The notes beneath the pieces were generated by a model. It was not told the DNA's origin. It saw nothing but the letters and a program-made list of their open reading frames with translations, and did not search any database. A program made the position numbers and the translations under genes. Positions 3,475-64,000 of a stretch of DNA of 64,000 nucleotides are shown one piece after another (positions within the stretch are counted from its first letter, which is position 1; the number at the start of each line of letters is the position of its first letter). The stretch is from IMG/VR virus record IMGVR_UViG_3300020473_000024, positions 1-64,000 of that record; one strand, 5' to 3'. This DNA comes from a virus.

Positions 3475-4388
3475 TGGCTAGAGTACAGGTACAAGATCTT
3501 AATGAAAAGTTGGAGTTAGCTGATATTGACTTCCTGCATATTAAGGACGGTGCTAGTGGTATTGACTATAAGTTTACTTTCAGTAATTTTGAATTACCCA
3601 CTACTAACCCTACTCGACAAACCGTGTCAAATTTAGGGAGTGTTGCTTTTGACAACTTAGTTCCTCTCGTCCGTGGGGGAACTGGATCTTCTACAGCGGC
3701 AGGAGCTAGGACAAACTTAGGGCTTGGCACTGCCGCTACAAAAGACTACGGAAGATCTCTTGGAAATCTAGTAGAGGTAGGCAGTTTTGGGTTAGGTTCA
3801 ACCTCAGACGGGGATAGTTTAAGTGGATCTATCGATTCTTCCTCTATCCCAGCAGGGGACTATAAGGTTTCCAGCAACTCTGGGGTATACCCAGTAGGAG
3901 TATCTACGTCTGGAGTGCTATCTGTTATTCGTTATAATGGAGATGTTATTGTACAAAAATATGCACCTAACAACAGTTTTAGACGATTTGAAAGAACTAT
4001 AGAGGGTGCGGTTGTAGGTGATTGGCGAGAGGTTGCTTTTGCAGGAGAAGATATCACGTTTAGAGATATCATTGGTAGGAATATTGATGCTACTGGATAT
4101 TTGCGTGGTTCAGACCCATCCCTGAAGTCCCGTAAACAAGTAGTGAGTGATATAACTCGTGAAGATTTAGACAGTATTGCTCTCTACTACTTCCGCTGGA
4201 AGGACATGCAAGAGGTTGATGAGTCTATCAGAGGCACTGAAGATATTGGTGTTATGGCTGATGAGGTACAGAGAATATTCCCAGAGTGTGTCACTGTGCG
4301 TAGTAATGGAACACTAGCTGTTGACTACGCTAAGTTCGCTACATGCTTCACTCTAGCAGATTACAAACTCAGGAGAGAGGGTAAATAA
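3474..4388 (+). CDS. tail fibre protein with C-terminal intramolecular chaperone (peptidase S74-like)
   Basis: GGTG..TAAGARTNLGLG repeat; C-terminal SD..LK...IGVMADEVQ..FPE.V...VDY. Confidence 0.8.
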   Translation: MARVQVQDLNEKLELADIDFLHIKDGASGIDYKFTFSNFELPTTNPTRQTVSNLGSVAFDNLVPLVRGGTGSSTAAGARTNLGLGTAATKDYGRSLGNLVEVGSFGLGSTSDGDSLSGSIDSSSIPAGDYKVSSNSGVYPVGVSTSGVLSVIRYNGDVIVQKYAPNNSFRRFERTIEGAVVGDWREVAFAGEDITFRDIIGRNIDATGYLRGSDPSLKSRKQVVSDITREDLDSIALYYFRWKDMQEVDESIRGTEDIGVMADEVQRIFPECVTVRSNGTLAVDYAKFATCFTLADYKLRREGK

Positions 4389-5068
4389 TGGCAATAGGTA
4401 TTCAAACGAGTGTAAGCCCTTATGAAGACTTTGATGATCTGTTTGAGCAAAGGATTTCAGGAGACCCCACAGTAGCAACTACTGGTGTCCAGACCTCTGG
4501 AGGTAGTGATATAAGTAATAGATATGTTCCTCTATCTTTCGGGGGAACAGCTATTGCTAACGACACTGGTGTTCAAAACAGCGCTGGAGATGATTGTCGT
4601 GATTTGTTTGCTGGAATAGGTACAGTTACTAGGGTACAAGCCCCTTGGGATGGATTAGATTACAGTGTAAGCTCCTTAGAGTCTGGATCGTCTACTGCGA
4701 GAGCTATACTAACTTTTTCACTAAATAACGACAAGAGCTTTTTGTTTGATGACTCTGGTAGCTCAACAAACACTATTAGTGGCATTCCAGTGGCTACTGG
4801 GGATTGGCTTGATAGTGGGTCTGTTTCTAGTTATGAGGCGAGAGTAAGCCTAGTATTCGACATAAATAACGGAGGTCAGATAAACAATGAAATGTCCTCT
4901 TTTGTCAGCCTTGGGACGTCTAGATCCTTGGTGATTGACTGTGCTAACAACCTTGGTGTAACACAAAAAGCTGGTACTGCCACTGTAGAAGTAAGACGTT
5001 CTTCTGATAATCAAATTGTTTCGACCAGTACATTTAGTTTTGATGTTAGAGCCGAAGGAACTAGTTAA
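4388..5068 (+). CDS. tail fibre tip/adhesin-like protein
   Basis: Coupled to the fibre gene; internal TGVQ.S.G.D repeats; S/T/G-rich. Confidence 0.55.
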   Translation: MAIGIQTSVSPYEDFDDLFEQRISGDPTVATTGVQTSGGSDISNRYVPLSFGGTAIANDTGVQNSAGDDCRDLFAGIGTVTRVQAPWDGLDYSVSSLESGSSTARAILTFSLNNDKSFLFDDSGSSTNTISGIPVATGDWLDSGSVSSYEARVSLVFDINNGGQINNEMSSFVSLGTSRSLVIDCANNLGVTQKAGTATVEVRRSSDNQIVSTSTFSFDVRAEGTS

Positions 5069-5089
5069 TATTAACATAAGAGGTGAATA

Positions 5090-5362
5090 ATGGTTAGTTG
5101 GTTATTATTTTTAATATTTGCTTTGCTTCAAGTGGCAGATGTACGCACCACTGATAAAGCGATCTTAGAGGGTGCTATCGAAGCTAACCCTGTTGTAAGA
5201 TGGGTCATGGACAAGCTAGGAGACAGGTGGTGGTTGGTTAAACTATTACCTCTGGCTGGTGGGGTGGTGTTATTAGCCCACCAAGCTTGGATGGCTCTCT
5301 TAGTTTTAAATGTAATTTTTGGTTTTGTTGTTTGGCACAACTACAAACTTGGGAGTAAGTAA
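5090..5362 (+). CDS. small membrane protein (DUF5658-like)
   Basis: D..TT...L..GA.EANP motif plus hydrophobic helices. Confidence 0.6.
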   Translation: MVSWLLFLIFALLQVADVRTTDKAILEGAIEANPVVRWVMDKLGDRWWLVKLLPLAGGVVLLAHQAWMALLVLNVIFGFVVWHNYKLGSK

Positions 5363-49913: not shown

Positions 49914-50150
49914 TCACATCTCTAACCTGCATTGAAAGTCTCCGTGACGTTTTAACTGCTCAACAGTTCTATATCCGCTTTGAACCCAAGAGCACCCGCC
50001 CCATACAGGATCTTTTTGCCAGATAAATAAACTTTCATTAAAATACTTACCATCAGCATAGTAGACTACTTTATCGGGTACATTGTCCCAACGTCTCGAT
50101 TCTTCGTACTCTTTAGACGCTTGGAATAATTCTCTAAGCCCCATTATCAA
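49914..50150 (-). CDS. hypothetical protein
   Basis: AAGGAG RBS. Confidence 0.5.
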   Translation of the reverse strand: MIMGLRELFQASKEYEESRRWDNVPDKVVYYADGKYFNESLFIWQKDPVWGGCSWVQSGYRTVEQLKRHGDFQCRLEM

Positions 50151-50661
50151 TCTCCTTGATTAATTTTTCAATAAACCTTTTCCTCTCTTCGTATAGGTGT
50201 AGGTTGTTTTCTTCCTCTACAGCCTTTACCAACAAACCTAAATCTATGTTGTTATATCTCAAAGCGGATAATGCCGCTATTGCTTCATTGGCTGTTGAGG
50301 CTAGCCAGTTCTTTTCTTCTTCTTGGAGCAAATCTTTGAAGTAGCTATAAACCTCCTCCTCTTCACTCTCTAAAATATGGACAGGTATTTTCAGACTAGC
50401 CTCTTCAGTAAAGTCCTCCCACGGCATGGTGTAAACCCAATCAGCTACAATAATACCACCATCTTCTTGATCTGGATAAAACTCAAAACTAAGTGATCCG
50501 TTAATGAAAGCGTAACAGTCAAACCCAGATAAATATAAGTCAGTGTCTTGTTGTACCTGTCTTAGTATATCCCCGACTTCATTAATTTTGTATACAATAT
50601 CTTCTTTACACTTTGCATAAGATTTTAATGTTTCTCTGATATTCATATTAACCTCACTCAA
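50134..50661 (-). CDS. acidic hypothetical protein
   Basis: ORF in the operon. Confidence 0.6.
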   Translation of the reverse strand: MSEVNMNIRETLKSYAKCKEDIVYKINEVGDILRQVQQDTDLYLSGFDCYAFINGSLSFEFYPDQEDGGIIVADWVYTMPWEDFTEEASLKIPVHILESEEEEVYSYFKDLLQEEEKNWLASTANEAIAALSALRYNNIDLGLLVKAVEEENNLHLYEERKRFIEKLIKEIDNGA

Positions 50662-50929
50662 TATTGATTAGGTCTTTTTTAAGAAACTTACCAACCCTAC
50701 TACTTTTAAGTTTAGCTCCTCCTTCCTCCCACACCCAAAATAGGCAATACATTATACCGAACCACACTAGAGCCAAAAGAGGTGTAACAAAACATATAGT
50801 TAGGTATACTACCTCCAATACATTGATAGATAATTTATCATGGTTATTCCAGAAAGATAATTTCCAACCAATATAAAAAACACAGGTTATATTTAATAAA
50901 ATCCACAACACCAAGAAAAACTTTAACAT
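50654..50929 (-). CDS. membrane protein
   Basis: Two TMs; GGAGG RBS. Confidence 0.55.
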   Translation of the reverse strand: MLKFFLVLWILLNITCVFYIGWKLSFWNNHDKLSINVLEVVYLTICFVTPLLALVWFGIMYCLFWVWEEGGAKLKSSRVGKFLKKDLINIE

Positions 50930-52302
50930 ATCTCCTCCATCTTATCAGCTGATTCCTTGTCGAATCTAAAGTATTTAAAGATAGGGAAATGCAAACTATA
51001 CTTAGGCTCACCTTCTTTAGCATTTTTATTAGAAGATACGCCATTACATTCCCCTGCTACAATCATTCCTTCTAGCTCGCCCTTTTCAGCCATAACCATT
51101 AACAACTCTCTATCATGTTCATGTCTTTCATCTAAAGGGATTCTTAGCTTTGTTTTAGCATCAGTATCCTTATCTTTAAATCCAGAGCCACAGTCAGTTC
51201 GTAGCATACCACACTCGCTCTCTAGAATCAACCCTCCTAACTTATTAGGATTTTTCTTATGAGGATAGTAGCCTACAACACGTAGTGCGAAATCAATCAC
51301 AGCTTTAAATTTAACTTGGTGTTTACTCCGTGTGTCCTCCCAAGGAGCATTTGAGTTTTTAAGAACAATACCTTCAAACCCTTCATCAATGTAAGAGATA
51401 GATAACTCTTTTGCTTCTTCAATACTGCTTACTTCGTGGGTCTCAATACTAGAGATAGAATCACTGCCTATAGAACTCACAATACTTTGTGACAAAGCAA
51501 ATCGCTCGTGATAAGGAACTCCCGAAAAACCTCTGAAGTAGTCTTCATAGTCGATAGCATCCCATACAACAAACTGGATGTTCTTTTCCTCTTCTTCTGA
51601 TAGAGTGCCTTTTAAAGCCTTACCTACAATACCATTACCTGTCTGACGGATCTCTTCTCTATCTCCATCTACATAAATAAGCTCTCCATCAATTACAGTA
51701 TCTGTCCCTATCATACTTAGTTGTTTGCATAAGCTAGGCAGTTCAAACACATTGGCATTCCTACTATAAATGGTCACTTCTCCATCTTTAATCACAGCAA
51801 TACCTCTTACACCGTCAGCTTTCTTCTGTGCAATAGCTGGAAATTTAATATTCTTGATATTAGCTGGTTTACTAGGTCTGGCTAACATTTTAGGAATAGT
51901 CGAAATACAGCCCTCCCAAACACTGTTTGCTGTGCTTTCACTACAACCCACCTCTAAGTCTCTTAGGAGCACACGTCTGTACACTTCCTTATCTTCTAAG
52001 GAGAGTTGGCTAAATACCACTTCTACAAAGTCCGAGGCGGCATGACCTCGTAACTTTTGTTCACACAATACCTTGTTGGTTTCCTTAAGGGCTTCCTCTA
52101 GAGAAATACTACCACTTTGCGGTGTCGGGGAAAGCCAGTCTTGGTTTATTTTTCTAATGTTAAAAGTGTAGCTCACCTTGTCATAAGCCATCTGGAAAAC
52201 AAGCTTAAGAGTATAGTTATGTTTATTGCTATTCAAAATAGCTTCTTTTTCAGTCTTTTTAGTGGTAGCGCTAAGTTTATTTAATACATCTAATGTGTTC
52301 AT
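50923..52302 (-). CDS. lig: ATP-dependent DNA ligase
   Basis: KADGVR, DGEL, EGIVLK, K.K, GSG, FP.F...R.DK. Confidence 0.93.
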   Translation of the reverse strand: MNTLDVLNKLSATTKKTEKEAILNSNKHNYTLKLVFQMAYDKVSYTFNIRKINQDWLSPTPQSGSISLEEALKETNKVLCEQKLRGHAASDFVEVVFSQLSLEDKEVYRRVLLRDLEVGCSESTANSVWEGCISTIPKMLARPSKPANIKNIKFPAIAQKKADGVRGIAVIKDGEVTIYSRNANVFELPSLCKQLSMIGTDTVIDGELIYVDGDREEIRQTGNGIVGKALKGTLSEEEEKNIQFVVWDAIDYEDYFRGFSGVPYHERFALSQSIVSSIGSDSISSIETHEVSSIEEAKELSISYIDEGFEGIVLKNSNAPWEDTRSKHQVKFKAVIDFALRVVGYYPHKKNPNKLGGLILESECGMLRTDCGSGFKDKDTDAKTKLRIPLDERHEHDRELLMVMAEKGELEGMIVAGECNGVSSNKNAKEGEPKYSLHFPIFKYFRFDKESADKMEEIC

Positions 52303-52598
52303 TTACTCTCCTTCCAATTAAGGTATAGCTCTTCAAATTCATCGAAAGATACTAAGCTCTTCCTGTCTCTAGAATCCATATATTCTGTCTGACAGTAAAA
52401 GTATGTTTTCCCAGCTTTACCACTCAGGTTAATGTTTGTAACGTAATAAGGTCTCCATCCTCGAATAGGCTTAGGGCTGAAAGCCTCTAAACCCATATCA
52501 TCAAACATCTCCCTTACTTGGGTAATTTGTTTTTGCTCTAAAGGCGCTAAATCTATAGCTACTTTGTGGTTAAATGTTGCCATACTGCTCCTTAGCAT
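52299..52598 (-). CDS. hypothetical protein
   Basis: AAGGAG RBS before MATFN. Confidence 0.55.
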   Translation of the reverse strand: MLRSSMATFNHKVAIDLAPLEQKQITQVREMFDDMGLEAFSPKPIRGWRPYYVTNINLSGKAGKTYFYCQTEYMDSRDRKSLVSFDEFEELYLNWKESK

Positions 52599-53118
52599 TA
52601 TAAAATCTTGGAAAAGCTATACCAGTGCCGTAGGTGTAAAGGATTCCCGATGGTGTTTCTCTAAACCCATAGCTCCCTAGCTCAATACCGCAAGGGGTTT
52701 CTAAATCAATCCCTTCTAGTGTATCTACTAGTCTAGTACCTCTCACACCTAACTGAGACATAACTCTCTGGGCTATAAGAGCCATCTGCTCTGGATTTTT
52801 TTCACTTAAAACGCTGATAATCTCTAGTTTTAGAAATACCAAGCAAGAATCTTTATTGAGCAAAGGCTCAGGGCGGTAGCAAGGAGCTAAGGACTGGTAG
52901 TTACCAAAACCAAGCTGGTCTTCTTCTAACATCTGGATAAAGCTCTGCTCTGAGCTGGCACAATAGACTAATTCAGGGGAGTGGTGTAGATCAGGAATAC
53001 CTTCTGGCTTGGTATGTTCAGAATATTTTTTCTTTATCACATGGGGAACGTCCACAGGGACAAAACCCTCTAATTGGTAAAGCTCTTTAGCTCTACATAA
53101 GTCTTCTAAGCCTATCAT
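52570..53118 (-). CDS. minimal class II aminoacyl-tRNA synthetase-like (SerRS-like) catalytic domain
   Basis: Motif 1 GFVPVDVP, ASSEQ, motif 2 APCYRPE..FLKLE, IDLE..IELGS, motif 3 GTGIAFPR. Confidence 0.7.
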   Translation of the reverse strand: MIGLEDLCRAKELYQLEGFVPVDVPHVIKKKYSEHTKPEGIPDLHHSPELVYCASSEQSFIQMLEEDQLGFGNYQSLAPCYRPEPLLNKDSCLVFLKLEIISVLSEKNPEQMALIAQRVMSQLGVRGTRLVDTLEGIDLETPCGIELGSYGFRETPSGILYTYGTGIAFPRFYNAKEQYGNI

Positions 53119-53363
53119 TGTCTCACTCCACTTTTAAAAGCTCTTTTGGTGATATCGCTCATAAGCTGTAAGTCCTCTAGCTCCATATTAAAATTATTTT
53201 GGACATAGCTCTCTACAGCACCTAACAGATCAGATAGCTCAACTAGTTCCATGACTTTACTACCTTGGGAATGAGCATCTAACCACTCTTTATACTCTTC
53301 TATGATTTTACTAGGCTCTCCTAACTCACCTTTCGGTATGTTTGTTAAATGATACCCAGCCAT
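53115..53363 (-). CDS. small MazG-like (NTP-PPase fold) protein
   Basis: SKIIEE..E..DA.......ELSDL.GA. Confidence 0.65.
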   Translation of the reverse strand: MAGYHLTNIPKGELGEPSKIIEEYKEWLDAHSQGSKVMELVELSDLLGAVESYVQNNFNMELEDLQLMSDITKRAFKSGVRQ

Positions 53364-53364
53364 A

Positions 53365-53613
53365 TTACCTCCTATCGATTTTATCTTTCATAAAGGTATC
53401 TGTTAATCGGATAATTAGATATACCACAGCTAACCATACCATGTGGAATGGGAATAAAATAAATAGAGGTATTTGCCTAATCTCAGGGAAATCAGAATAC
53501 TTTAGTTCCCAGACAATAACGAAAAACCCTGCGATTAAATAAGCTAACAAAAGTATGTACTCAATCATCCTTCCTCCTTGGTGAAAACACCAGCTGACAA
53601 TCTTTTTCTTCAA
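53365..53613 (-). CDS. membrane protein
   Basis: Two TMs. Confidence 0.5.
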   Translation of the reverse strand: MKKKIVSWCFHQGGRMIEYILLLAYLIAGFFVIVWELKYSDFPEIRQIPLFILFPFHMVWLAVVYLIIRLTDTFMKDKIDRR

Positions 53614-53755
53614 CGACTAAAGACTGGCACTCATTGTCTAACAATGGTTGGCAAACAAGCTTATCTTTAGCACTTTGTGTTACAACAGCATAACGGAGGG
53701 GCGAATCAAGCCCCTCCTTGTTAATGTACACTAATGAGTTCTTAGGATATGCCAT
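53561..53755 (-). CDS. small hypothetical protein
   Basis: MAYPKNSLV...; follows the NAMPT stop. Confidence 0.5.
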   Translation of the reverse strand: MAYPKNSLVYINKEGLDSPLRYAVVTQSAKDKLVCQPLLDNECQSLVVEEKDCQLVFSPRRKDD

Positions 53756-53756
53756 A

Positions 53757-55388
53757 TTACCCCCAAAGACGTTCTCGAATCTCTTGGAAAGATTGTGTGT
53801 TAAAAAGCTCCCCATCTTTAAAGACTGTCTTCAGAAGCCCTTGTTGCTCTTGCTCTCGTGTTTGTTGATCGAAAAGGGCAATATTCCCATTCTCGTCATA
53901 ATCTACACGGAGTAAACCTTTAGCAGACTTTTTAGTACCATCGTCTGTAGCAGGATCTTTAAACAGCTCGTGGGATTGTCCATTCACCTCTGCGTAGGTT
54001 GCCTTTACTGCCATACCAAGAGTATCACGGGTCATGTACTGCATCGTAAAACTACCCACACCAAACACTACATTTGTAGAGGCAAAGCCTTTATCGGCTA
54101 ATCGCTCACAAATCTGCTGGATACGTTCATAGTTCATACTATCCCCGTAGATAAGACCTACACGCTCGTGCAGTACACGATAGCCTTGCTCAGTCTCAGT
54201 ACCACCGAAGATGTCCCACAACACTTCGATTGCACCTTTCACTTCGTGCTCTGCTAACTCTTTTCCAAGAACAGCCTTACCTCTGAAGTTGTTAAGTTCA
54301 AACCACTGTCCGTCTATCTTCACAGCCTCAGGCATCTTAAGAACGTTATTATTGTAGTGATACAAAGCCAAGTCTGCTTCAGTAAATTCCTTGTCACTTG
54401 TTGTGTAGCCAGTAACAATCTTAACAGGATCACCACTATCGGGACGAAATACTGTCTTAGCAATACCCAACTCATTTGGAATACGGTTAAGGATATCCTG
54501 TTTCAATTCAACTACATACTCAGTTAATACCTTCCAAAAATCAAAAGTGTCTGAGATAACTGATACAATACCCGTAGGGTAGTCTTCTGTAATCCACTTA
54601 CGCAACATTTCCAGTTCGCCTCGTACAGCAATACCTGTTGAAGCTAGACTGTGTTCACTCGCTGGAACAGAGGTTGAAATAAATTCATTACTCCAGTGTG
54701 ATTTATAGTAGTTAGCAATAAACTGATTAGCTGGAACTGTGTCACTACCATTACTAGATAGTAAGAATGCACTACTACTCTTAGCGGAATCTTGACGGTT
54801 AGACATCCCACGGAAGCTAAAGTCGTGTAGCTGAAACTCTGTACCGTCAGTAGAGCCTGTTGTGTGAACAGCACACTTATTAACAAGCTTACGGTAGTAC
54901 CAGATTAAGGTTGCTACCGTCTGTGCTTTCCAAGTCTCACAGCTCATAATAGTTTCGACAAAGTTGGTCAACCAAGCGAACTGTGGGATAGTGTTCTGAA
55001 TTGTGTAAGTAGGCACTTTAATAGGTACTACCATACCTTCTGGTAAAGCCTTAACTTCCAAAGGTAGATAACCTAGGCGGTGTAGCTCTCGGAAGTGTTC
55101 TGTCTTCTCGTAAGGCATACCATAAACGTCTTTGTAAAAACCTTGCAAGTATCCTACAGCACTATCTTCAGGCATATTGAAGAAAGTGACTGACATTTCT
55201 GTTAGGAAAAAATCAATAAGCGTGTGTTGCAAGCCGTACACAACGTAGACACCTTCTTTCTCTATCTCTGGGATAGGTAGCCACTTCTCACTACGAGGGG
55301 TCATGTTAGAATAGATCAAGGTTGTTCCATTCTCCATAAAACCTTTATGAGATAGTTTGTAGCTGTCGGTTTGAATCATACCGTTCAT
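53757..55388 (-). CDS. nadV: nicotinamide phosphoribosyltransferase-like (NAMPT/Namat)
   Basis: TDSYKLSH, LHDFSFRG, SVPASEHS, FRPDSGDP, IYGD, GVGS, KKSAKG. Confidence 0.92.
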   Translation of the reverse strand: MNGMIQTDSYKLSHKGFMENGTTLIYSNMTPRSEKWLPIPEIEKEGVYVVYGLQHTLIDFFLTEMSVTFFNMPEDSAVGYLQGFYKDVYGMPYEKTEHFRELHRLGYLPLEVKALPEGMVVPIKVPTYTIQNTIPQFAWLTNFVETIMSCETWKAQTVATLIWYYRKLVNKCAVHTTGSTDGTEFQLHDFSFRGMSNRQDSAKSSSAFLLSSNGSDTVPANQFIANYYKSHWSNEFISTSVPASEHSLASTGIAVRGELEMLRKWITEDYPTGIVSVISDTFDFWKVLTEYVVELKQDILNRIPNELGIAKTVFRPDSGDPVKIVTGYTTSDKEFTEADLALYHYNNNVLKMPEAVKIDGQWFELNNFRGKAVLGKELAEHEVKGAIEVLWDIFGGTETEQGYRVLHERVGLIYGDSMNYERIQQICERLADKGFASTNVVFGVGSFTMQYMTRDTLGMAVKATYAEVNGQSHELFKDPATDDGTKKSAKGLLRVDYDENGNIALFDQQTREQEQQGLLKTVFKDGELFNTQSFQEIRERLWG

Positions 55389-55389
55389 G

Positions 55390-56259
55390 TTATTCTCCTC
55401 CATTAAAATCATCGATATCTTTTAGGCTAATATAATTAGCCACTGTTTGTTCACAATATATATTGTCTACCAAACCTTTGAAGATGTCAAGACCTTTTGA
55501 AAAGATTCCGTGTGTTACGTATAAAGAAACAGAGTTAGCTCCAGCCTCTTTAAGGGCTTCAGCACATTTCAAAAAGGTCATACCTCCATCACAGATATCA
55601 TCGGTAATCAAAATATCTTTCCCCAATACAATCTCAGGACTCTCAAGCTTGAATCCAGTGATCCAGCCCGTAGAAACATCCCGTTCTTTCTCACAAAAAG
55701 TAACAGGCACTTGGAACACAAAACCGTTCTGAAGTGTTTTATCTACAGCTCCTTTATCTGGTGCTACAAACAAACAACTTTCTTTTTTAATCAAGTCAGA
55801 AAGACTTTCATTTCTACGGCAAGTATTAAGTAGACAGTCATATTGGCTAATCTCCTCAATCATATTCCTGACCATCACATCTTCTTTAACCACATCGCTA
55901 TGAAGATCTTTGCACAGTATTTTATCAAAACTCGTTGTCCAAAGACACTGAATAAACACTTGTAAAGGGGCTACCATCCCTTCTTCAAAAGGTCGATCTG
56001 CCCTAGCATGAGGAAAGTAAGGTAGGTTAAGCTTTCGCTCCACAGTGGAAGATATATTAGCCTTTACAAGAATTTCATCTACCACTTCGATTATATTGGA
56101 GTAGCTTGCTACTGGTGTATCTGGGGAGATGGTGAGGCAAACATAATTCTCCAGATTTTCTAAAGCTTCCTTATCGATCTGGATATTAAAACCACCGTCA
56201 CTGAACTCTATAAATTTAGTGGAGATTTCTTTATTATCCCCTATAACCTGAATAGTCAT
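55390..56259 (-). CDS. prs: ribose-phosphate pyrophosphokinase-like (Prs/Adps)
   Basis: FSDG, PYFPHARADR, DLHS, APDKGA, DDICDGGMTF, VTHGIFS. Confidence 0.9.
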   Translation of the reverse strand: MTIQVIGDNKEISTKFIEFSDGGFNIQIDKEALENLENYVCLTISPDTPVASYSNIIEVVDEILVKANISSTVERKLNLPYFPHARADRPFEEGMVAPLQVFIQCLWTTSFDKILCKDLHSDVVKEDVMVRNMIEEISQYDCLLNTCRRNESLSDLIKKESCLFVAPDKGAVDKTLQNGFVFQVPVTFCEKERDVSTGWITGFKLESPEIVLGKDILITDDICDGGMTFLKCAEALKEAGANSVSLYVTHGIFSKGLDIFKGLVDNIYCEQTVANYISLKDIDDFNGGE

Positions 56260-56792
56260 ACATCCTCCAATTTGAGTTTCTTAATAACCTCTTCTCTTTG
56301 CCAAGGCAGATACAAATTATACCAAGGCACTGAATATTGTTTAGCTAGTTGAACAGCTGTATTAGTTCCACCCTCTACTCCATCTTTAGTGGGAGGAGAC
56401 CAGCATATTAACACACGAGAAGGTGTTTGTAAATCATCTCCTAGCACTTGGTAGACATTACGAGCGTGAAACTTTAAAAAAGTTCCCTTTAAATTATCCC
56501 CTAAAGGGTGTACGCTCCTAGCAATATAGATAGCTTCTTCGTAGTTATCGAAAGTAGAAGGATCTACATGGAATCTATCTACACTGAAGCCATTAAAACC
56601 TACCCAAGGGAGGTAAGACCTAAAACTTTGCTCAGATATACCACCTTCTTCGAAAGCTAAGTCGCTCCCATCAGCGCTACCGCTTCTACCCTTATAGCCC
56701 CATCGAGCAAGCTGTACAGCTATCTTTGTTTGTAATTCCATGATCTCTGGTGGAGTTTTTCTACTGCCTACTCCAGTGTAAAATAAATCCAT
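56256..56792 (-). CDS. SLOG/DprA-like nucleotide-binding protein
   Basis: YTGVGSRKTP, RSG.ADG.D.AFE, ARN..QV, GGT.TA. Confidence 0.8.
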   Translation of the reverse strand: MDLFYTGVGSRKTPPEIMELQTKIAVQLARWGYKGRSGSADGSDLAFEEGGISEQSFRSYLPWVGFNGFSVDRFHVDPSTFDNYEEAIYIARSVHPLGDNLKGTFLKFHARNVYQVLGDDLQTPSRVLICWSPPTKDGVEGGTNTAVQLAKQYSVPWYNLYLPWQREEVIKKLKLEDV

Positions 56793-57813: not shown

Positions 57814-58758
57814 TTAAAATTCTACGTTATATTTACCTACTTGGATAATATTCGGGATATCCAATAAATCCCACATGCGAACAACCTGAGGTCGATCATC
57901 AAACAAAGCAATAACATTATACTTGCCACGAACTTGGTTGTCAAATAATTCATACTTAATAATGTCATCTTTTCGACTGTCTTTGGGAGATCGTTGGTAA
58001 AGATCCCATTTAATACCCAGCCGAGCTAAATCGTCTGTGATAATGTTGTCCTCAATCCACTGTGCAGAGGAATCGTAGCAGACTCCATCCCTGCCAGAAA
58101 AGAATGTAATATGTCCCGTCTTAAGTGCTAGAGCACTCACCATATCGATGACCTCTTGGCGGGGCTTATCTAAATGAACTTTATCCCAATCAAAAGGTTT
58201 CCGAACACCAGTCATATCCGCAACAGTGCCATCTAAGTCCACGATGATAGTATCCTCTAGGAATAGACAATCTTCGTAGGGCTTGATTTTATTTCCACCA
58301 ATAGTACCAAATTGTTGCATAAAACGCTTGTATTGACTCCAAAGAAGACTTTCTGGTAAACCGCCCTCACGCTGTGCATTCCGTTTGACAAGTGTTTCCC
58401 AGCTTTCTTGGAAATATTTATACTCCACTTCATAGCCGTTCTCTTCAGCCCAACTCTCCCATTTACCTCGGATGGCTGGGCTGAGGTTCGTGTCAGAAAT
58501 AATAATGTTATGCTGTAGTACAGAGGCATCAAAAGCCTTTTGATCGACCACTTTTGTAACACGTTTTTCATTACTATTGTTGAACTTGTACTTTGTCCAA
58601 TCCCGAACACCATTGTTAAACAAAGCAAAGCGAATATCATCACGGTTGAGATTGACCCACTTAGGGTCTCCTTGCAGGGCTTGTTCTAAGATATACTCTT
58701 CAGCCCATTTTGTCTTACCAGAGCTGGACGCTCCTACAGTCATAATTAATTTAAGCAT
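57814..58758 (-). CDS. pseT: polynucleotide 5'-kinase / 3'-phosphatase
   Basis: GASSSGKT, NRDDIR, SDTNL; DLDGT, SGR, FDDR. Confidence 0.92.
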   Translation of the reverse strand: MLKLIMTVGASSSGKTKWAEEYILEQALQGDPKWVNLNRDDIRFALFNNGVRDWTKYKFNNSNEKRVTKVVDQKAFDASVLQHNIIISDTNLSPAIRGKWESWAEENGYEVEYKYFQESWETLVKRNAQREGGLPESLLWSQYKRFMQQFGTIGGNKIKPYEDCLFLEDTIIVDLDGTVADMTGVRKPFDWDKVHLDKPRQEVIDMVSALALKTGHITFFSGRDGVCYDSSAQWIEDNIITDDLARLGIKWDLYQRSPKDSRKDDIIKYELFDNQVRGKYNVIALFDDRPQVVRMWDLLDIPNIIQVGKYNVEF

Positions 58759-60053
58759 TAACTAGAATCCTCCATATCAACGTTGTTTTCTCTATAAATG
58801 CCCTCCAAAATTTTAAAAGGGATAGACTTATTCTTATAGAACTTCGGCACTAACGTCTCTCCATCTACACGAATCACAACACCCTCGCTAATGTGGGATG
58901 GGTCTCGATAGTCCTCACAAAGGTTATCTTCACGCTCTGTTAATACGTCTACCACATTCATTAAACTGTCAGAGTCTCCTCGGTAAACAAAAGGCTCTAC
59001 TAGATCAAGAGTAGATTCAATACCACGGTCTTCACACCAACGTTTGAATTGACTTTGTGTTAAATCAATTTCTGTGCCATCGATGGACGTGATTGTCACA
59101 CGATAAGCATAAAACTTATACTCATCTGGGAGGCAGTTATAAGTGTAAGTAATCTCTTTACCATACTTCTTAGTGAACTGCTTATCCTTTAGTTTAGTTA
59201 CGTCATGCGTACCCATAATAGGTTTACCATTAGCAAAGCCTACAATCTCTCCATACACAGTAACACCTCGGTTAAGGAAGGGTTTTAGTTGCTCTAAAAT
59301 CTCAAAGCGGAAGCCTTCATTACCGTGAAATCCTTCTTTATCTTTTTGAGAATTTTTAAGAACAACCCTGCGTGTCCCTGCTACATAATCCCACTCCTGA
59401 GTCTCGAAAATAGGAACAACCTTATTTACAAGACGTTTCCACCAAGGTAATTCTTTCTCAACTAAGGTGTGGCTATAACGAGCCGATGTTCCATGACCTT
59501 TTGCTTGAATACTAATAATAGAGCCAGCTGGAATGCGATCAACATGATACTTGAATTGATCAGTATCAACGTGTTGATGAAATAAAGGTGTTTCTTGCTT
59601 CTTACGCGCTTTTGTCCTTTGATTTGCTTGGGCTTTTTTAGTGCGAGGGTTGATATACTTCTGAGCAATAGGCACTCCATTTAGTTCTTCAAACATCATG
59701 CCTAACTCTAACTTACTGATATCATACCCTGTAAAATGGAAGGACTCTAACCCAGCAAAGTAACCACACGACTTAACACCTAAGAAAGGTTGTGCGCGTA
59801 CCCTGCGGTTATCTTCAAAGAATCCCTTAGCCTTTGGGTTTTTGTTGTTTTCACTGTTACGATACAGCCCATTATCACTAACATAATCGTGAGATAGTTG
59901 AGTCTCAGCTGGGAAGTACACACCTAAGTCTCCCTCTTTAGCTGTCTTGGATACGATAACAGGCTCACCAAGTACATAAGCTACTTGGATGTTATCTGCT
60001 TTTTCAATCTGTTCTGTTTTTGCAATCTTAGCAATAATACCACAGTAGTTCAT
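58758..60053 (-). CDS. RNA ligase (Rnl2/DRB0094-like) with N-terminal OB domain
   Basis: I.KAD.I.V, K.HGTS, YGEIVG, EGVVIR, K.KS..F. Confidence 0.85.
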   Translation of the reverse strand: MNYCGIIAKIAKTEQIEKADNIQVAYVLGEPVIVSKTAKEGDLGVYFPAETQLSHDYVSDNGLYRNSENNKNPKAKGFFEDNRRVRAQPFLGVKSCGYFAGLESFHFTGYDISKLELGMMFEELNGVPIAQKYINPRTKKAQANQRTKARKKQETPLFHQHVDTDQFKYHVDRIPAGSIISIQAKGHGTSARYSHTLVEKELPWWKRLVNKVVPIFETQEWDYVAGTRRVVLKNSQKDKEGFHGNEGFRFEILEQLKPFLNRGVTVYGEIVGFANGKPIMGTHDVTKLKDKQFTKKYGKEITYTYNCLPDEYKFYAYRVTITSIDGTEIDLTQSQFKRWCEDRGIESTLDLVEPFVYRGDSDSLMNVVDVLTEREDNLCEDYRDPSHISEGVVIRVDGETLVPKFYKNKSIPFKILEGIYRENNVDMEDSS

Positions 60054-60072
60054 TAAAATACCTCCTAAATTT

Positions 60073-60127
60073 AGACAATAAAAAGCCATGTACCCAAAAG
60101 GATACACGGCTTAACTAGGATTGTCAA
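60073..60127 (-). promoter_or_regulatory. composite promoter/terminator
   Basis: TTGACA-17-TATCCT inside hairpin AGCCGTGTATCC-TTTT-GGGTACATGGCTTTTT. Confidence 0.65.
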
Positions 60128-62116: not shown

Positions 62117-62193
62117 TGGTGGGTCGAGAGGGATTTGAACCCCCGATCCACTCGTTAAAAGCGAGTTGCCTTACCAGACTTGGCTATCGACCC
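62117..62193 (-). tRNA. tRNA-Lys(TTT)
   Basis: Cloverleaf, ACTCG-CTTTTAA-CGAGT, GTTCAAATC, CCA. Confidence 0.92.
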
Positions 62194-62198
62194 TGATT

Positions 62199-62273
62199 TG
62201 GAGCTTGCTGGGGGTTACGATCCCCCGACCTCTGCTTGGAAGGCAGATATTTTACCAATTAAACTAAGCAAGC
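62199..62273 (-). tRNA. tRNA-Gly(TCC)
   Basis: TCTGC-CTTCCAA-GCAGA, U73, CCA; atypical T loop ATCGTAA. Confidence 0.85.
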
Positions 62274-62278
62274 CAATG

Positions 62279-62355
62279 TGGTGCGCCAAGGCGGTTATGA
62301 TCCGCTCCTACTCCTAGTTATGAGCTAGTTGCTTTCCCGATTAAGCTATTGGCGC
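62279..62355 (-). tRNA. tRNA-Met/Ile2(CAT)
   Basis: CTAG-CTCATAA-CTAG, CCA; atypical T loop ATCATAA. Confidence 0.8.
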
Positions 62356-62360
62356 GAAAA

Positions 62361-62436
62361 TGGTAGTGGTGGCAGGAATCGAACCTGCGACACGTAGATT
62401 ATCGGTCTACTGTTCTACCAGCTGAACTACACCACT
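62361..62436 (-). tRNA. tRNA-Ile(GAT)
   Basis: GTAGA-CCGATAA-TCTAC, GTTCGATTC, CCA; C at position 33. Confidence 0.88.
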
Positions 62437-62440
62437 GGAT

Positions 62441-62517
62441 TGGCTGAGGTGGAGGGATTCGAACCCCCGACCATCTGCTTAGAAGGCAGATGCTCTATCC
62501 AACTGAGCTACACCCCA
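62441..62517 (-). tRNA. tRNA-Arg(TCT)
   Basis: TCTGC-CTTCTAA-GCAGA, GTTCGAATC, GCCA. Confidence 0.92.
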
Positions 62518-63927
62518 TTAAACTAAAAATACTGGATCATACCGAGAATCTAGAACAGTTTCGTACATGATATCCAAAGGACTCACCACCTTAGAAGATA
62601 ACACTGATCTCATAATAGATGGGCTAAATCCACTTACTAAAGCTGTACCATTATCTTGCTTCTGGACAGGGTAGTTCTCTTGTCGAGAGCAGACATTCCA
62701 GAAAATTAAGTCAGGTCTTTTATAACCAGCTTTCTCAAACATCTTATCAATAGTGGCGAAGTTAGTCATCCCACCACAAGCACAATCAAATTCCATGTCA
62801 CTGATGATCATAATCTTATTAGGAAGTTCACTTTGGTCTAAACCATGCTTTACAGCCGATTCCAGTACAAGTTGAAATACAGCGATCAAGTTTGTATTGA
62901 AACCCCAATCCGAGTTGTATAGAGATCGAAGTTTACTATATAGCTTATCTCCTTTAACATTCTGTAAAGAAGGTCTTTCAGAGAAAGTAATAAACTTATT
63001 GTTAAACTTACCTTCGATACGTTCTGATAGATAAAGACCTAAGCTAACAGCAACATCCATAGCCGTTGTACTACCACTAACTTTGATGTGCATACTCCCA
63101 GAGGTGTCAACCACAGGAAGAATGCTAAAACTCTCTCCTTCAAAGTAATCTGGAAGGGCTTCCCACTGTTCGTTCGCGGCTGTTGTATTACCACCTTCTC
63201 GCATACTTTTAATAATATCGTAAGGATATACCGCCCCAGCGTTAATCTTAGCCTCACCTTTACTAAGCTTATCTAAGTAGCTTCTGTAACGATTCTCATC
63301 ATTACGTAAGAAAGATTTTTGATATCGAGCCGAAGCTACTGAAGGTACATGCTCATAGTTGATCTTGTCAAACTCTTTAGCACACATTTTTTGTTCCACA
63401 GTATCGCTCAAGCTAGACAGCATCTTACGGTACTCTTTTGAGCGAAGCCCCATGTGTTTACGTAGCAGTACAGCATAATCTCGTTTAGCTGACTTCTCAC
63501 GAGGACACCATTTAGCGGCTAGCGCACTACCTTCTTTAAGCTTTGAGGCATAAAAAGAAAGCATAGCCTCTTCTAAATCCGTACCAACAAACGTAAACAG
63601 ATTATCATAGCGAGTCAACTCAACAACCTTGTCAAAAAGTTCTGTAGTGTTAAGGTCTTCTGTCAACTCTGGTAGAAGTTTAACAAGGTCTTTAAAAATT
63701 TGTCTTTCACCAGCTCCTTGGCGCACATCACCAGCCCATAAAAGAATACGGGTGGCTAATCCTTTATCCTCATTCCAAGCTCGTACAAACTTGTGATCGA
63801 TATTCTTACCGCGAGAAGCCCCGATAGTAGCGAATAGATCTAAATTAGCGTCTAAGCTCGAAGAATTAGTGATAGCCCCGTTTTCAGTACGAGACATACC
63901 TGTTTGCATAGCATCAAATAATTCCAT
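62518..63927 (-). CDS. DUF2828 / TROVE-vWA (Ro60-like) protein
   Basis: TENGA, D.R.G.GER, AAKW.PR, VPS.A, MIDAS DTSGSM, SDMEFD, FWN, SGFS; start after AGGAGG. Confidence 0.85.
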   Translation of the reverse strand: MELFDAMQTGMSRTENGAITNSSSLDANLDLFATIGASRGKNIDHKFVRAWNEDKGLATRILLWAGDVRQGAGERQIFKDLVKLLPELTEDLNTTELFDKVVELTRYDNLFTFVGTDLEEAMLSFYASKLKEGSALAAKWCPREKSAKRDYAVLLRKHMGLRSKEYRKMLSSLSDTVEQKMCAKEFDKINYEHVPSVASARYQKSFLRNDENRYRSYLDKLSKGEAKINAGAVYPYDIIKSMREGGNTTAANEQWEALPDYFEGESFSILPVVDTSGSMHIKVSGSTTAMDVAVSLGLYLSERIEGKFNNKFITFSERPSLQNVKGDKLYSKLRSLYNSDWGFNTNLIAVFQLVLESAVKHGLDQSELPNKIMIISDMEFDCACGGMTNFATIDKMFEKAGYKRPDLIFWNVCSRQENYPVQKQDNGTALVSGFSPSIMRSVLSSKVVSPLDIMYETVLDSRYDPVFLV

Positions 63928-64000
63928 AAATCCTCCTAAATTCTGAATGTGTTTTGCTTCCATATCGCGGATTTGTTTTGCTGTATACATTCATCCAATT

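What the first reader, a model, noticed from the sequence alone, without database searches (positions are those of the whole stretch)
52570..53363. Mini SerRS-like enzyme coupled to a MazG-like protein
Seen: a 182-aa protein with class II aaRS motifs in SerRS order (APCYRPE~TPCFRSE, FLKLE~FDKVE, IDLE~YDLE, GTGIAFPR~GSGLAVGR) and no tRNA-binding arm, overlapping an 82-aa EExxE...ELSD protein by ATGA. Established: truncated class II paralogs ligate amino acids to proteins or carriers (EpmA, aa:CP ligases), and aaRSs can make ApnN dinucleotides. Inference: a two-gene adenylation system making or destroying a nucleotide signal, modifying a nucleotide or protein, or acting with the PPase-fold partner; it lies between DNA ligase and the NAD+ genes.
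Basis: partly seen in the sequence, partly recalled or inferred. Interest (0 to 1): 0.75.

Follow-up and report, generated by a model that had tools for sequence, protein, structure and literature searches.

The report
Mini seryl-synthetase core with Atd1-like partner
Two overlapping phage genes encode a stripped-down seryl-tRNA-synthetase catalytic core and a small MazG-type pyrophosphatase of the family called Atd1, reported to destroy the starvation alarmone ppGpp; the two almost always travel together or fused, and what the synthetase half does is unknown.

Summary
ORFs 52570-53118(-) (182 aa) and 53115-53363(-) (82 aa) overlap by ATGA.

The 182-aa protein is a confident class II synthetase core. 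It is closest to the SerRS catalytic domain and has no tRNA arm.

The 82-aa protein is a three-helix MazG/HisE-like protein with invariant EExxE...ExxD acidic residues.

The pair is one unit:
- 78 of 80 viral loci with the core hold the partner on the same strand.
- 21 of 22 cellular loci found from the partner hold the core.
- Natural fusions exist.
- No third gene is conserved.

New here: the partner belongs, by inference, to the family of Atd1. Atd1 is a phage MazG-like enzyme reported to hydrolyse ppGpp and blunt TIR-effector toxicity. That preprint never mentions the synthetase-like gene, and none of my 10 paper searches found a study of the pair.

Best reading (0.42): a two-part counter-defence device aimed at the stringent-response alarmone. 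The role of the SerRS-like half is open.

This scan noted the same module before, on other DNA in at least 53 genomes. The reading that the core loads an amino acid onto a free nucleotide was priced at 6-7 in 100 in the two follow-ups that carry a later check.

Novelty: new variant of a known kind. Interest: 0.6.

The parts
53115..53363 (-). 82-aa MazG/HisE-like (Atd1-family) protein: conserved extended N-terminal segment (GYHxxxIxKGxLGExSKI) followed by three helices carrying EExxE..D (E22 E23 E26 D29) and ExxD (E42 D45)
   Evidence: ORF. phrog_6408 2.7e-35. 72-sequence alignment with invariant Y4 H5 I9 G15 K19 E22 E23 E26 D29 Q33 E42 D45 G48 L65 T72 A75 F76 R81. AF2 pLDDT 91.5, helices 17-32, 36-58, 62-78. 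Top Foldseek rows are MazG 3cra and PRA-PH 1yvw/2a7w, but at E 0.6-1.1. Atlas models of MazG-domain proteins align at TM 0.67-0.69 over residues 13-82. 51% identical (8e-27) to the PcCB7V protein inferred to be Atd1.
52570..53118 (-). 182-aa minimal class II aminoacyl-tRNA-synthetase core of SerRS type: motif 1 (P25), S-x-E (S55, E57), motif 2 (CYRPE, R82 E84) with a shortened loop, F95-x-K97-x-E99, D138, E146-x-x-S149, motif 3 (G164 T165 G166 ... P170 R171)
   Evidence: ORF. phrog_4806 2.9e-36. Profile against PDB: SerRS 1.5e-7. AF2 pLDDT 96.9, pTM 0.91. Foldseek: PylRS catalytic domain 7e-10, TMq 0.75-0.79. VIA-align: mt-SerRS 7u2a Z 18.6, rmsd 2.6, 181 aligned. Colinear alignment with two SerRS catalytic domains.
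53115..53118 (-). ATGA stop/start overlap joining the two genes (translational coupling inferred)
   Evidence: By my ORF calls, the same 4-base overlap occurs in 25 of the 78 viral loci that hold both genes.

Best explanation
The two genes encode one conserved two-protein (sometimes one-protein) enzyme module that the phage uses as a counter-defence or host-takeover device aimed at the host's stringent-response alarmone. SHOWN: both are real, conserved genes. One is a SerRS-derived class II catalytic core without a tRNA arm. The other is a small MazG/HisE-like protein with intact metal-binding acidic residues. They are linked or fused almost without exception, and no third gene travels with them. 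INFERRED, step 1 (about 0.85): the 82-aa protein belongs to the family of Atd1, a phage MazG-like enzyme reported to release pyrophosphate from ppGpp (Km about 50 uM) but not from rNTPs, and to protect cells from TIR-STING and retron-TIR toxicity. INFERRED, step 2 (about 0.6): the 182-aa core still binds ATP and serine (or a close analogue) and forms an aminoacyl-adenylate. INFERRED, step 3 (my commitment, about 0.25 on its own): lacking an RNA-binding arm and having a shortened motif 2 loop, the core passes the adenylate on to a small nucleotide acceptor. That is, it uses the known ApnN/ApppGpp side reaction of class II synthetases on (p)ppGpp or an NTP, so the alarmone is both adenylylated and cleaved by the pair. 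The second variant inside this explanation (about 0.15) is that the core keeps tRNA-Ser charged, so that RelA is not triggered while the partner removes the ppGpp already made.
For: Linkage:
- 275 against 270 phage records with the same host spectrum.
- 78 of 80 IMG/VR loci with the core have the partner on the same strand, 61 of those 78 overlapping or within 18 nt. The gene order is reversed in 12, yet the genes stay adjacent.
- 21 of 22 cellular loci found from the partner hold the core. The 22nd is a 275-bp contig.
- Fused proteins: L089 and L097; P0096, P0122 and P0158; Microcystis phage MaMV-DC gp129.
- No other family recurs nearby. The next real same-strand families reach 9 of 80 loci; families seen in 23 and 14 loci are opposite-strand shadow ORFs over the pair. 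The top Pfam family among 149 neighbours occurs 3 times.

Atd1 link:
[quoted passage not shown] Its hit was a MazG-like catalytic domain from Pectobacterium phage PcCB7V.
- In PcCB7V the NTase QQG33502 carries the paper's GS-x-AY[GAN]T-x4-SDxD motif.
- The 86-aa family member QQG33500 lies 2 genes downstream of it.
- The only other MazG-like gene lies about 30 kb away with no annotated NTase within 4 kb, and it does not fit the family profile.
- AntiDefenseFinder's authors report Atd1 in Phapecoctavirus, Justusliebigvirus and Lazarusvirus (passage). Members of the 82-aa family are seen here in all three genera.

Active site:
- Invariant R82, R171, F95, S55, E57, S149 and T165, and near-invariant E99 and E146.
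- These align colinearly with the SerRS motifs.

Context:
- The window places the pair in a run of repair and counter-defence genes: tRNAs, RNA ligase, PNKP, Prs-like and NAMPT-like genes.
- The chemistry of ApppGpp formation by synthetases is recalled from the literature, not from a call.
Against: - No experiment on the synthetase-like half was found.
- In the preprint Atd1 worked alone, both purified and in cells, so the partner is not needed for ppGpp hydrolysis there.
- That QQG33500 is Atd1 is inferred from the screening rule and the taxonomic spread. The text gives no accession, and supplements were closed.
- Which bond of ppGpp is cut is not stated.
- MazG-fold support is below significance: Pfam 13.5 bits against a cut-off of 21.3, Foldseek E 0.6 or worse, VIA Z 6.5 or less.
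- The pair is also chromosomal and syntenic in Saccharibacteria next to housekeeping genes. That argues for a general metabolic role, not a purely anti-defence one.
- Conserved serine-site residues are expected for any amino-acid-activating enzyme and do not point to a nucleotide acceptor.
Confidence: 0.42

Rival explanations
1. tRNA 3'-end rescue. The class II core docks the CCA end of tRNAs. The Atd1-like half removes a 3'-pyrophosphate put there by toxic small alarmone synthetases (CapRel/FaRel2 type). The core then re-esterifies the end. In a milder form, the pair simply belongs to the phage's tRNA repair kit.
For: tRNA genes lie within 4 kb of the pair in 13 of 80 viral loci, several of them inside tRNA arrays (also CcrC3). 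PcCB7V has a CCA-adding enzyme and a peptidyl-tRNA hydrolase 3-4 kb upstream. The window has PNKP, RNA ligase and a tRNA cluster 5-9 kb away on the same strand. Atd1 is reported to act on ppGpp but not on NTPs. This would fit removal of a 3'-pyrophosphate, but that is my inference. That hydrolases of 3'-pyrophosphates can restore such tRNAs is recalled, not from a call.
Against: There is no RNA-binding appendage. 98% of 123 cores and all 72 partners are acidic, with median pI 5.2 and 5.3. The motif 2 loop that holds the acceptor stem in SerRS is shortened. I ran no control for the 13 of 80 figure. 67 of 80 loci have no tRNA nearby.
Confidence: 0.15
2. A biosynthetic pair making an amino-acid-nucleotide conjugate. 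The MazG-like half turns an NTP into the NMP (as MazZ feeds PurZ in Z-genome phages; recalled). The core then ligates serine or a similar acid to that nucleotide or to another small metabolite.
For: Tight coupling and fusion of a nucleotide pyrophosphohydrolase with an adenylate-forming ligase. Neighbours are often nucleotide-metabolism genes such as RNR, thymidylate synthase and RpiB. The pair is chromosomal in genome-reduced Saccharibacteria beside a wHTH-NUDIX protein and a P-loop kinase.
Against: The carrier phages share no known DNA or RNA modification (recalled). No studied truncated synthetase paralogue loads a free nucleotide (earlier check quoted). Atd1 was reported not to hydrolyse rNTPs.
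Confidence: 0.13
3. Regulatory subunit. Like HisZ for HisG, the core no longer catalyses a reaction. It senses serine, ATP, seryl-AMP or an uncharged CCA end and switches the pyrophosphatase on or off.
For: HisZ is among the best structural matches: 3od1 Z 18.0 and 5m8h Z 15.8. The partner resembles HisE/PRA-PH. Fusion and 1:1 co-occurrence fit a holoenzyme.
Against: The catalytic arginines of motifs 2 and 3, and the residues that align with the SerRS Mg/ATP site, are invariant across 123 diverse sequences. A mere sensor would not need that. Atd1 was active alone.
Confidence: 0.1
4. Protein or carrier aminoacylation, as by EpmA/GenX on EF-P or by the amino acid:carrier-protein ligases, perhaps with the 82-aa protein itself as acceptor.
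For: The fold matches these paralogues: 3mey Z 15.7, 3a5y Z 13.9. The partner has a strongly conserved N-terminal loop with K11 and K19.
Against: No carrier protein or other third gene is conserved. K11 is replaced by R in a natural variant and in the fusion P0122. The partner keeps a full set of catalytic-type acidic residues, which fits an enzyme better than a substrate.
Confidence: 0.05

Closest known systems
Bacterial/eukaryal-type seryl-tRNA synthetase (SerRS, class IIa), catalytic domain
   Same: Same fold over all 181 residues (7u2a Z 18.6; 6ote, 2dq0, 6blj, 1ser Z 16.6-17.4). Significant profile match (2dq3, 1.5e-7). Colinear S/T-A-E, (T/S)PC(F/Y)RxE, FxKxE, ExxS and G-T-(G/A)...R motifs.
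   Different: About 180 aa instead of about 430. No N-terminal coiled-coil tRNA arm. The motif 2 loop is about 6 residues shorter, and the hairpin after ExxS is deleted. It is always paired with a MazG-like protein. The cells that carry it also have a normal SerRS (2 of 2 genomes tested).
Atd1, phage MazG-like (p)ppGpp pyrophosphatase (Ho et al., bioRxiv 10.1101/2022.06.09.495361)
   Same: The window's 82-aa protein is 51% identical (8e-27) to the PcCB7V protein that fits the paper's description and screening rule. Same genera as reported for Atd1.
   Different: Atd1 is described as a single-gene anti-defence factor. The paper's text has no occurrence of 'tRNA synthetase'. Here the family proves to be one half of an almost obligate pair. 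The identity of Atd1 with this family is inferred, not read from an accession.
Truncated class II paralogues: HisZ, amino acid:carrier-protein ligase (Bll0957), EpmA/GenX, AsnA, PylSc
   Same: Stand-alone class II cores without anticodon-binding domains that do something other than charge tRNA. All are structural matches: 3od1 Z 18.0, 3mey 15.7, 3a5y 13.9, 11as 13.5, 2zni 17.8.
   Different: All are 270-390 aa; this one is about 180 aa. Their partners (HisG, carrier proteins, EF-P) are absent here. Sequence affinity is to SerRS, not HisRS or LysRS. The PHROG label 'histidyl tRNA synthetase' is therefore misleading.
MazG / HisE (PRA-PH) all-alpha NTP pyrophosphohydrolases
   Same: EExxE...ExxD acidic motif on two helices, preceded by a lysine. 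The best, though weak, structural and Pfam matches are MazG, PRA-PH, iMazG and DCTPP1.
   Different: Only three helices in 82 aa. The first helix of the canonical bundle is replaced by an invariant extended segment. Scores stay below family cut-offs.

Membership tests
Class II aminoacyl-tRNA synthetase catalytic fold | Antiparallel beta-sheet core with motifs 1, 2 and 3, including the motif 2 and motif 3 arginines | tested here: met
   AF2 pLDDT 96.9. Foldseek E 7e-10 to PylRS cores. Z 18.6 to SerRS with 181 aligned. P25, R82 and R171 conserved in 123 sequences.
Seryl-tRNA synthetase (EC 6.1.1.11) | N-terminal coiled-coil arm that binds the long variable arm of tRNA-Ser | tested here: not met
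   The protein is 182 aa and aligns only to the catalytic domain. No Seryl_tRNA_N in Pfam. The family is 170-200 aa throughout the 150 listed members.
Seryl-tRNA synthetase (EC 6.1.1.11) | Serine and ATP site residues (T/S-A-E, RxE, FxKxE, ExxS, G-T, motif 3 R) | tested here: met
   Columns aligned with two SerRS catalytic domains and invariant or nearly so. Which residue touches serine is recalled from SerRS structures, not tested.
Seryl-tRNA synthetase (EC 6.1.1.11) | Charges tRNA-Ser with serine | not testable with these tools
   Needs an aminoacylation assay.
MazG/HisE all-alpha NTP pyrophosphohydrolase | EExxE(12-28)ExxD metal-binding motif | tested here: met
   E22 E23 E26 and E42 D45 are invariant in 72 sequences. 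The motif definition is recalled.
MazG/HisE all-alpha NTP pyrophosphohydrolase | Family-level sequence or fold match | tested here: inconclusive
   Pfam PRA-PH 13.5 bits against a cut-off of 21.3. Relatives reach 19.1 bits. Foldseek's best rows are MazG and PRA-PH at E 0.6-1.1. VIA Z 6.5 or less. Atlas TM 0.67-0.69 to MazG domains.
Atd1 (anti-TIR defence 1) | Homology to the PcCB7V MazG-like protein found next to a phage NTase | tested here: met
   51% identity, 8e-27. The family HMM scores that protein at 6.8e-41. The NTase carrying the paper's motif lies 2 genes upstream.
Atd1 (anti-TIR defence 1) | That this PcCB7V protein is the Atd1 of the paper | tested here: inconclusive
   It follows from the 4-gene, under-200-aa rule, from the other MazG-like gene lying about 30 kb away, and from the matching genera. 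There is no accession in the text, and supplements were closed.
Atd1 (anti-TIR defence 1) | Hydrolyses (p)ppGpp and protects against TIR effectors | not testable with these tools
   Reported for Atd1 only.
Amino acid:carrier-protein ligase / EpmA / HisZ systems | Conserved partner gene (carrier protein, EF-P/EpmB, HisG) | tested here: not met
   No such family among neighbours in 80 viral loci or among 149 flanking proteins.

The most novel reading that the evidence does not exclude
The Atd1-like half and the mini-SerRS half form one enzyme that works on nucleic-acid or nucleotide 3'-pyrophosphates. The class II core docks the tRNA CCA end (or ppGpp). The MazG-like half strips a 3'-pyrophosphate added by toxic alarmone-synthetase defences. 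The core then re-acylates or adenylylates the freed end. This would be a repair cycle with no known precedent, run by the smallest natural class II synthetase core.
Probability: 0.08. Interest if true: 0.85.

Novelty: new variant of a known kind. Interest (0 to 1): 0.6.

Why it matters
Three reasons.

1. Atd1 is already listed in anti-defence catalogues as a single gene. This work shows that it is nearly always encoded with, or fused to, a synthetase-like enzyme. The published mechanism is therefore probably incomplete, and screens that express Atd1 alone may miss its real activity.

2. At about 180 residues this is a natural, widespread class II synthetase core (1164 clusters at 50% identity). 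It is much smaller than the characterised paralogues and close in size to the engineered 'urzymes' used to argue how synthetases arose. It is a ready test object for the minimal requirements of amino-acid activation.

3. The pair is shared by large phages and by tiny-genome bacteria. Its product is therefore likely a small molecule or RNA-end chemistry of general use. Homologues in E. coli phages (phi92 gp196/gp197 and Vequintavirus relatives) make it directly testable.

Tried and rejected
- Complex prediction of the two proteins gave no verdict (score 0.00). It counts neither for nor against binding.
- Sequence searches of the PDB gave nothing significant for the 182-aa protein alone, for the 82-aa protein alone, or for the 82-aa family profile.
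- NCBIfam gave no hit for either protein or for the 99-aa neighbour.
- A megablast of 50000-56500 against phage records found nothing.
- I looked for a third conserved gene by all-against-all clustering and by Pfam tallies of 149 flanking proteins. Of 179 candidate flanks I dropped 30 from near-duplicate loci: L016, L034, L043, L047, L052, L057, L060-L063 and L072. None emerged.
- YqeY next to the pair in phi92 is local to that group.
- Longer relatives gave one 443-aa protein whose extra 260 residues match no Pfam family.
- Promoter-like sites are at chance level (19 against 17.5, sd 3.5). Terminator-like sites (10 against 4.2, sd 2.5) do not separate the two genes.
- Expression: two metatranscriptome runs hold contigs only at 53507-53700, upstream of the pair. 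This says nothing about the pair's transcription.
- No MNT-type NTase motif occurs in the window.
- RelA_SpoT domains are present in 5 of 5 CPR genomes that carry the pair. This is compatible with a ppGpp role but does not discriminate.
- Literature: searches found no study of the pair or of the core. Genome papers only name it: RXM (passages); the CB7 paper does not mention it; the jumbo-phage review does not mention it (passages).
- The Cell Reports DOI that I recalled for the Atd1 paper is not held.
- The supplementary tables of the Atd1 preprint, which may give the accession, could not be seen.
- I considered and dropped HisRS/HisZ membership, because sequence affinity is to SerRS. I also dropped a DNA-hypermodification role, because the carrier phages share no known modification (recalled).
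Full report
**What is there.** The window is part of an 85-kb virus record rated 99% complete, seen in marine metagenomes. On the minus strand, ORF 53115..53363 (82 aa) ends in the start codon of ORF 52570..53118 (182 aa) through an ATGA overlap. Both genes are conserved:
- PHROGs gives phrog_4806 (2.9e-36, labelled 'histidyl tRNA synthetase') and phrog_6408 (2.7e-35, unknown function).
- Close relatives of both proteins sit on the same 86-kb and 87-kb contigs.
- A natural variant in a DNA run differs mostly by synonymous changes: 12 synonymous against 5 non-synonymous in the core, and 6 against 5 in the partner, among the differences the tool listed.

**The 182-aa protein.**
- Pfam alone gives only a sub-threshold tRNA-synt_2 match (E 0.0043).
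- An exhaustive phmmer search finds 1164 cluster representatives, almost all 170-200 aa among the 150 listed.
- A profile of 123 of them hits SerRS in the PDB (2dq3 1.5e-7, 6blj 2.2e-6), and more weakly the PylRS catalytic domain.
- AlphaFold2 with that alignment gives pLDDT 96.9 and pTM 0.91.
- Foldseek puts the model on PylRS catalytic domains (E 7e-10, TMq 0.75-0.79).
- The exhaustive aligner puts it on human mt-SerRS (Z 18.6, rmsd 2.6, 181 residues), HisZ (18.0), PylRS (17.8) and many SerRS (16.6-17.4).
- All 181 aligned residues fall inside the catalytic domain. There is no arm.
- Aligned with two SerRS catalytic domains, taken from genomes that also carry the mini form, the motifs are colinear: S/T-A-E, PC(Y/F)RxE, FxKxE, D138, ExxS and G-T...R. 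The mini form lacks about six residues of the motif 2 loop and the hairpin after ExxS.
- S55, E57, R82, F95, D138, S149, T165, P170 and R171 are invariant in 123 sequences. K97, E99, E146, G148 and G164 are nearly so.
- I recall from SerRS structures, and did not test, that these columns are the ATP, Mg and serine contacts.
- I therefore read it as a still-active serine-type adenylate-forming core. It is a member of the class II fold and of SerRS descent, but it is not a SerRS in the functional sense, because the defining tRNA arm is absent.

**The 82-aa protein.**
- It is far more conserved than the core: 55-75% identity across very different phages.
- Invariant residues are Y4 H5 I9 G15 K19 E22 E23 E26 D29 Q33 E42 D45 G48 L65 T72 A75 F76 R81.
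- The model (pLDDT 91.5) has an ordered non-helical N-terminal segment and three helices.
- The EExxE...ExxD pattern matches the MazG metal site.
- The best Foldseek rows are E. coli MazG, two PRA-PH (HisE) structures, iMazG and DCTPP1, with 22-29% identity for the three top rows (MazG and the two PRA-PH) and 12-22% for the others. Their E-values are 0.6 or worse, and Z is 6.5 or less.
- Pfam stays under its cut-offs.
- Atlas models of MazG-domain proteins align over residues 13-82 at TM 0.67-0.69.
- 'MazG/HisE-like' is thus well motivated but not formally significant.

**The pair is one unit.**
- tblastn finds the core in 275 phage records and the partner in 270. The host spectrum is the same: Escherichia 112/113, Acinetobacter 61/59, Caulobacter 13/13, Pectobacterium 10/10.
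- Of 80 IMG/VR loci fetched with the core, 78 have the partner on the same strand. 61 of the 78 overlap or lie within 18 nt, and 25 have the same 4-base overlap. In 12 the order is reversed, yet the genes stay adjacent. 17 are separated by 143-1962 nt.
- Starting from the partner instead, 21 of 22 loci in bacterial genome assemblies have the core. The 22nd is a 275-bp contig.
- Fusions (core then partner) occur in two candidate-phyla-radiation (CPR) loci, in three of the 18 longest proteins, and in Microcystis phage MaMV-DC gp129.
- No third family recurs. After the pair, the next real same-strand families are seen in 9 of 80 loci. The commonest Pfam family among 149 flanking proteins occurs three times.
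- In Saccharibacteria the pair is chromosomal and syntenic in five or six genomes. It lies beside a wHTH-NUDIX protein, a P-loop kinase, Mur ligases and TrmB.
- The two Saccharibacteria genomes tested also have a normal SerRS. All five CPR genomes tested have a RelA/SpoT-type enzyme.

**The link to Atd1.**
- The preprint of Ho et al. (10.1101/2022.06.09.495361; abstract, passages and section 13 read) screened uncharacterised ORFs under 200 aa lying within four genes of phage MNT-like nucleotidyltransferases.
- The purified protein released pyrophosphate from ppGpp (Km about 50 uM) but not from rNTPs or c-di-GMP. It lowered a ppGpp reporter. It protected against TIR-STING and retron-TIR.
- In PcCB7V (MW367417.1) the nucleotidyltransferase QQG33502 carries the paper's catalytic motif.
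- The 86-aa member of our family, QQG33500, lies two genes downstream of it.
- The mini-SerRS QQG33497 is the fifth gene, just outside the screen's window, and a 1-kb insertion separates the pair.
- The only other MazG-like gene of that phage lies about 30 kb away. It has no annotated nucleotidyltransferase within 4 kb and does not fit our family profile.
- The AntiDefenseFinder preprint states that Atd1 occurs in Phapecoctavirus, Justusliebigvirus and Lazarusvirus (passage). I see our family in phAPEC8, phi92 and Kimel, which belong to exactly those genera.
- The window's protein is 51% identical to QQG33500 (8e-27).
- I put the family assignment at about 0.85. The accession itself was not visible because supplements were closed.
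- The preprint's text never mentions a tRNA synthetase. No paper in the library links Atd1 with one in substance.

**How it most likely works.** Shown: two enzymes-by-sequence that are inherited as one. Inferred: the partner removes the stringent-response alarmone, as reported for Atd1, and the core activates serine.

Why would these two be welded together? The stringent response is triggered by uncharged tRNA and is classically induced by blocking SerRS with serine hydroxamate (textbook knowledge). So a serine-activating enzyme and a ppGpp hydrolase bear on the same pathway.

I commit to the reading that the pair is an anti-alarmone device (0.42). Within it, I commit to the variant that the arm-less, acidic core with its shortened loop hands its adenylate to a nucleotide polyphosphate. 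This is the known ApnN/ApppGpp chemistry of class II synthetases (recalled), and it would let the alarmone be capped as well as cut (about 0.25). The alternative variant is that the core sustains seryl-tRNA charging (about 0.15).

Against this reading:
- Atd1 worked without the core.
- The pair is a chromosomal gene of CPR bacteria among housekeeping genes.
- Nothing here shows what the acceptor is.

**Rivals.** Details are in the Rival explanations section.
- tRNA 3'-end rescue (0.15). It is supported by tRNA genes within 4 kb in 13 of 80 loci (no control run), by CCA-adding enzyme and Pth near the pair in PcCB7V, and by PNKP, RNA ligase and tRNAs upstream in this window.
- A biosynthetic amino-acid-nucleotide ligase (0.13).
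- A HisZ-like regulatory subunit (0.10).
- Protein aminoacylation (0.05).

**Comparison with the known, and novelty.** The core works like, and descends from, SerRS, but it fails the arm criterion. It resembles the truncated paralogues (HisZ, aa:carrier-protein ligases, EpmA, AsnA, PylSc) in being a stand-alone core. It differs in being much smaller, lacking their partners and having its own. The partner is, by inference, the known Atd1.

What is new is the near-obligate pairing and the synthetase-like half, for which I found no study. The database labels ('histidyl tRNA synthetase', 'putative seryl-tRNA synthetase', 'phosphoribosyl-ATP pyrophosphatase') are guesses.

The scan has already noted this module in at least 53 genomes. 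Where later checks are recorded, they kept the observation (87-90 in 100) and priced the free-nucleotide-loading reading at 6-7 in 100.

I rate it a new variant of a known kind, with interest 0.6.

Noticed in passing
window 53757-56259 (-): A 551-aa NAMPT/NAPRTase-family protein (PF04095 4.7e-35, NAMPT_N) directly follows a 289-aa Prs-like phosphoribosyl-pyrophosphokinase-type protein. This looks like the two-gene NAD+ reconstitution pathway NARP1 (Adps + Namat; name recalled), a counter to NAD+-depleting defences. It fits the reported anti-TIR role of Atd1 next door.
   Followed up: partly
window 57814-60107 (-) and 62117-62517 (-): Polynucleotide kinase-phosphatase (AAA_33 + HAD_PNKP, 2.8e-37) and an RNA ligase (449 aa) lie side by side, a T4-type tRNA repair pair. 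Upstream on the same strand are five tRNA genes: Lys, Gly, Met, Ile and Arg.
   Followed up: partly
window 62518-63990 (-): A 490-aa protein with DUF7788 (4.4e-49) and DUF2828 (6.3e-30) lies directly beside the tRNA cluster. Its function is unknown to me.
   Followed up: no
window 52299-52598 (-): A 99-aa ORF overlaps the 3' end of the core gene by 29 nt and the DNA ligase start by 4 nt. It has no Pfam, PHROG or NCBIfam match and is not part of the conserved module.
   Followed up: partly
window 53365-53815 (-): Two small ORFs lie between the NAMPT-like gene and the pair: an 82-aa hydrophobic one and an 84-aa one. Contigs of two metatranscriptome runs cover 53507-53700 only.
   Followed up: no
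L112 (PcCB7V) 4262-5265: In PcCB7V a roughly 1-kb insertion with two hypothetical genes (73 aa on the opposite strand, 208 aa) splits the otherwise adjacent pair. A CCA-adding enzyme, a peptidyl-tRNA hydrolase and the MNT-like nucleotidyltransferase lie just upstream.
   Followed up: partly
L096 4064-5974 and L099 3992-5858: In Saccharibacteria the pair sits beside a wHTH-NUDIX protein (DUF7347 + NUDIX), seen in 6 loci by clustering, and a roughly 390-aa P-loop kinase (AAA_28 / PRK family), checked in 2 loci. In L096 the kinase gene overlaps the partner's start.
   Followed up: partly
L002 (phi92) 4334-4768: phi92 gp195, just downstream of the pair, is a YqeY/GatB-C-like protein (PF09424, 5.3e-07). 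Such domains are thought to bind tRNA (recalled). It is not conserved with the pair elsewhere.
   Followed up: partly
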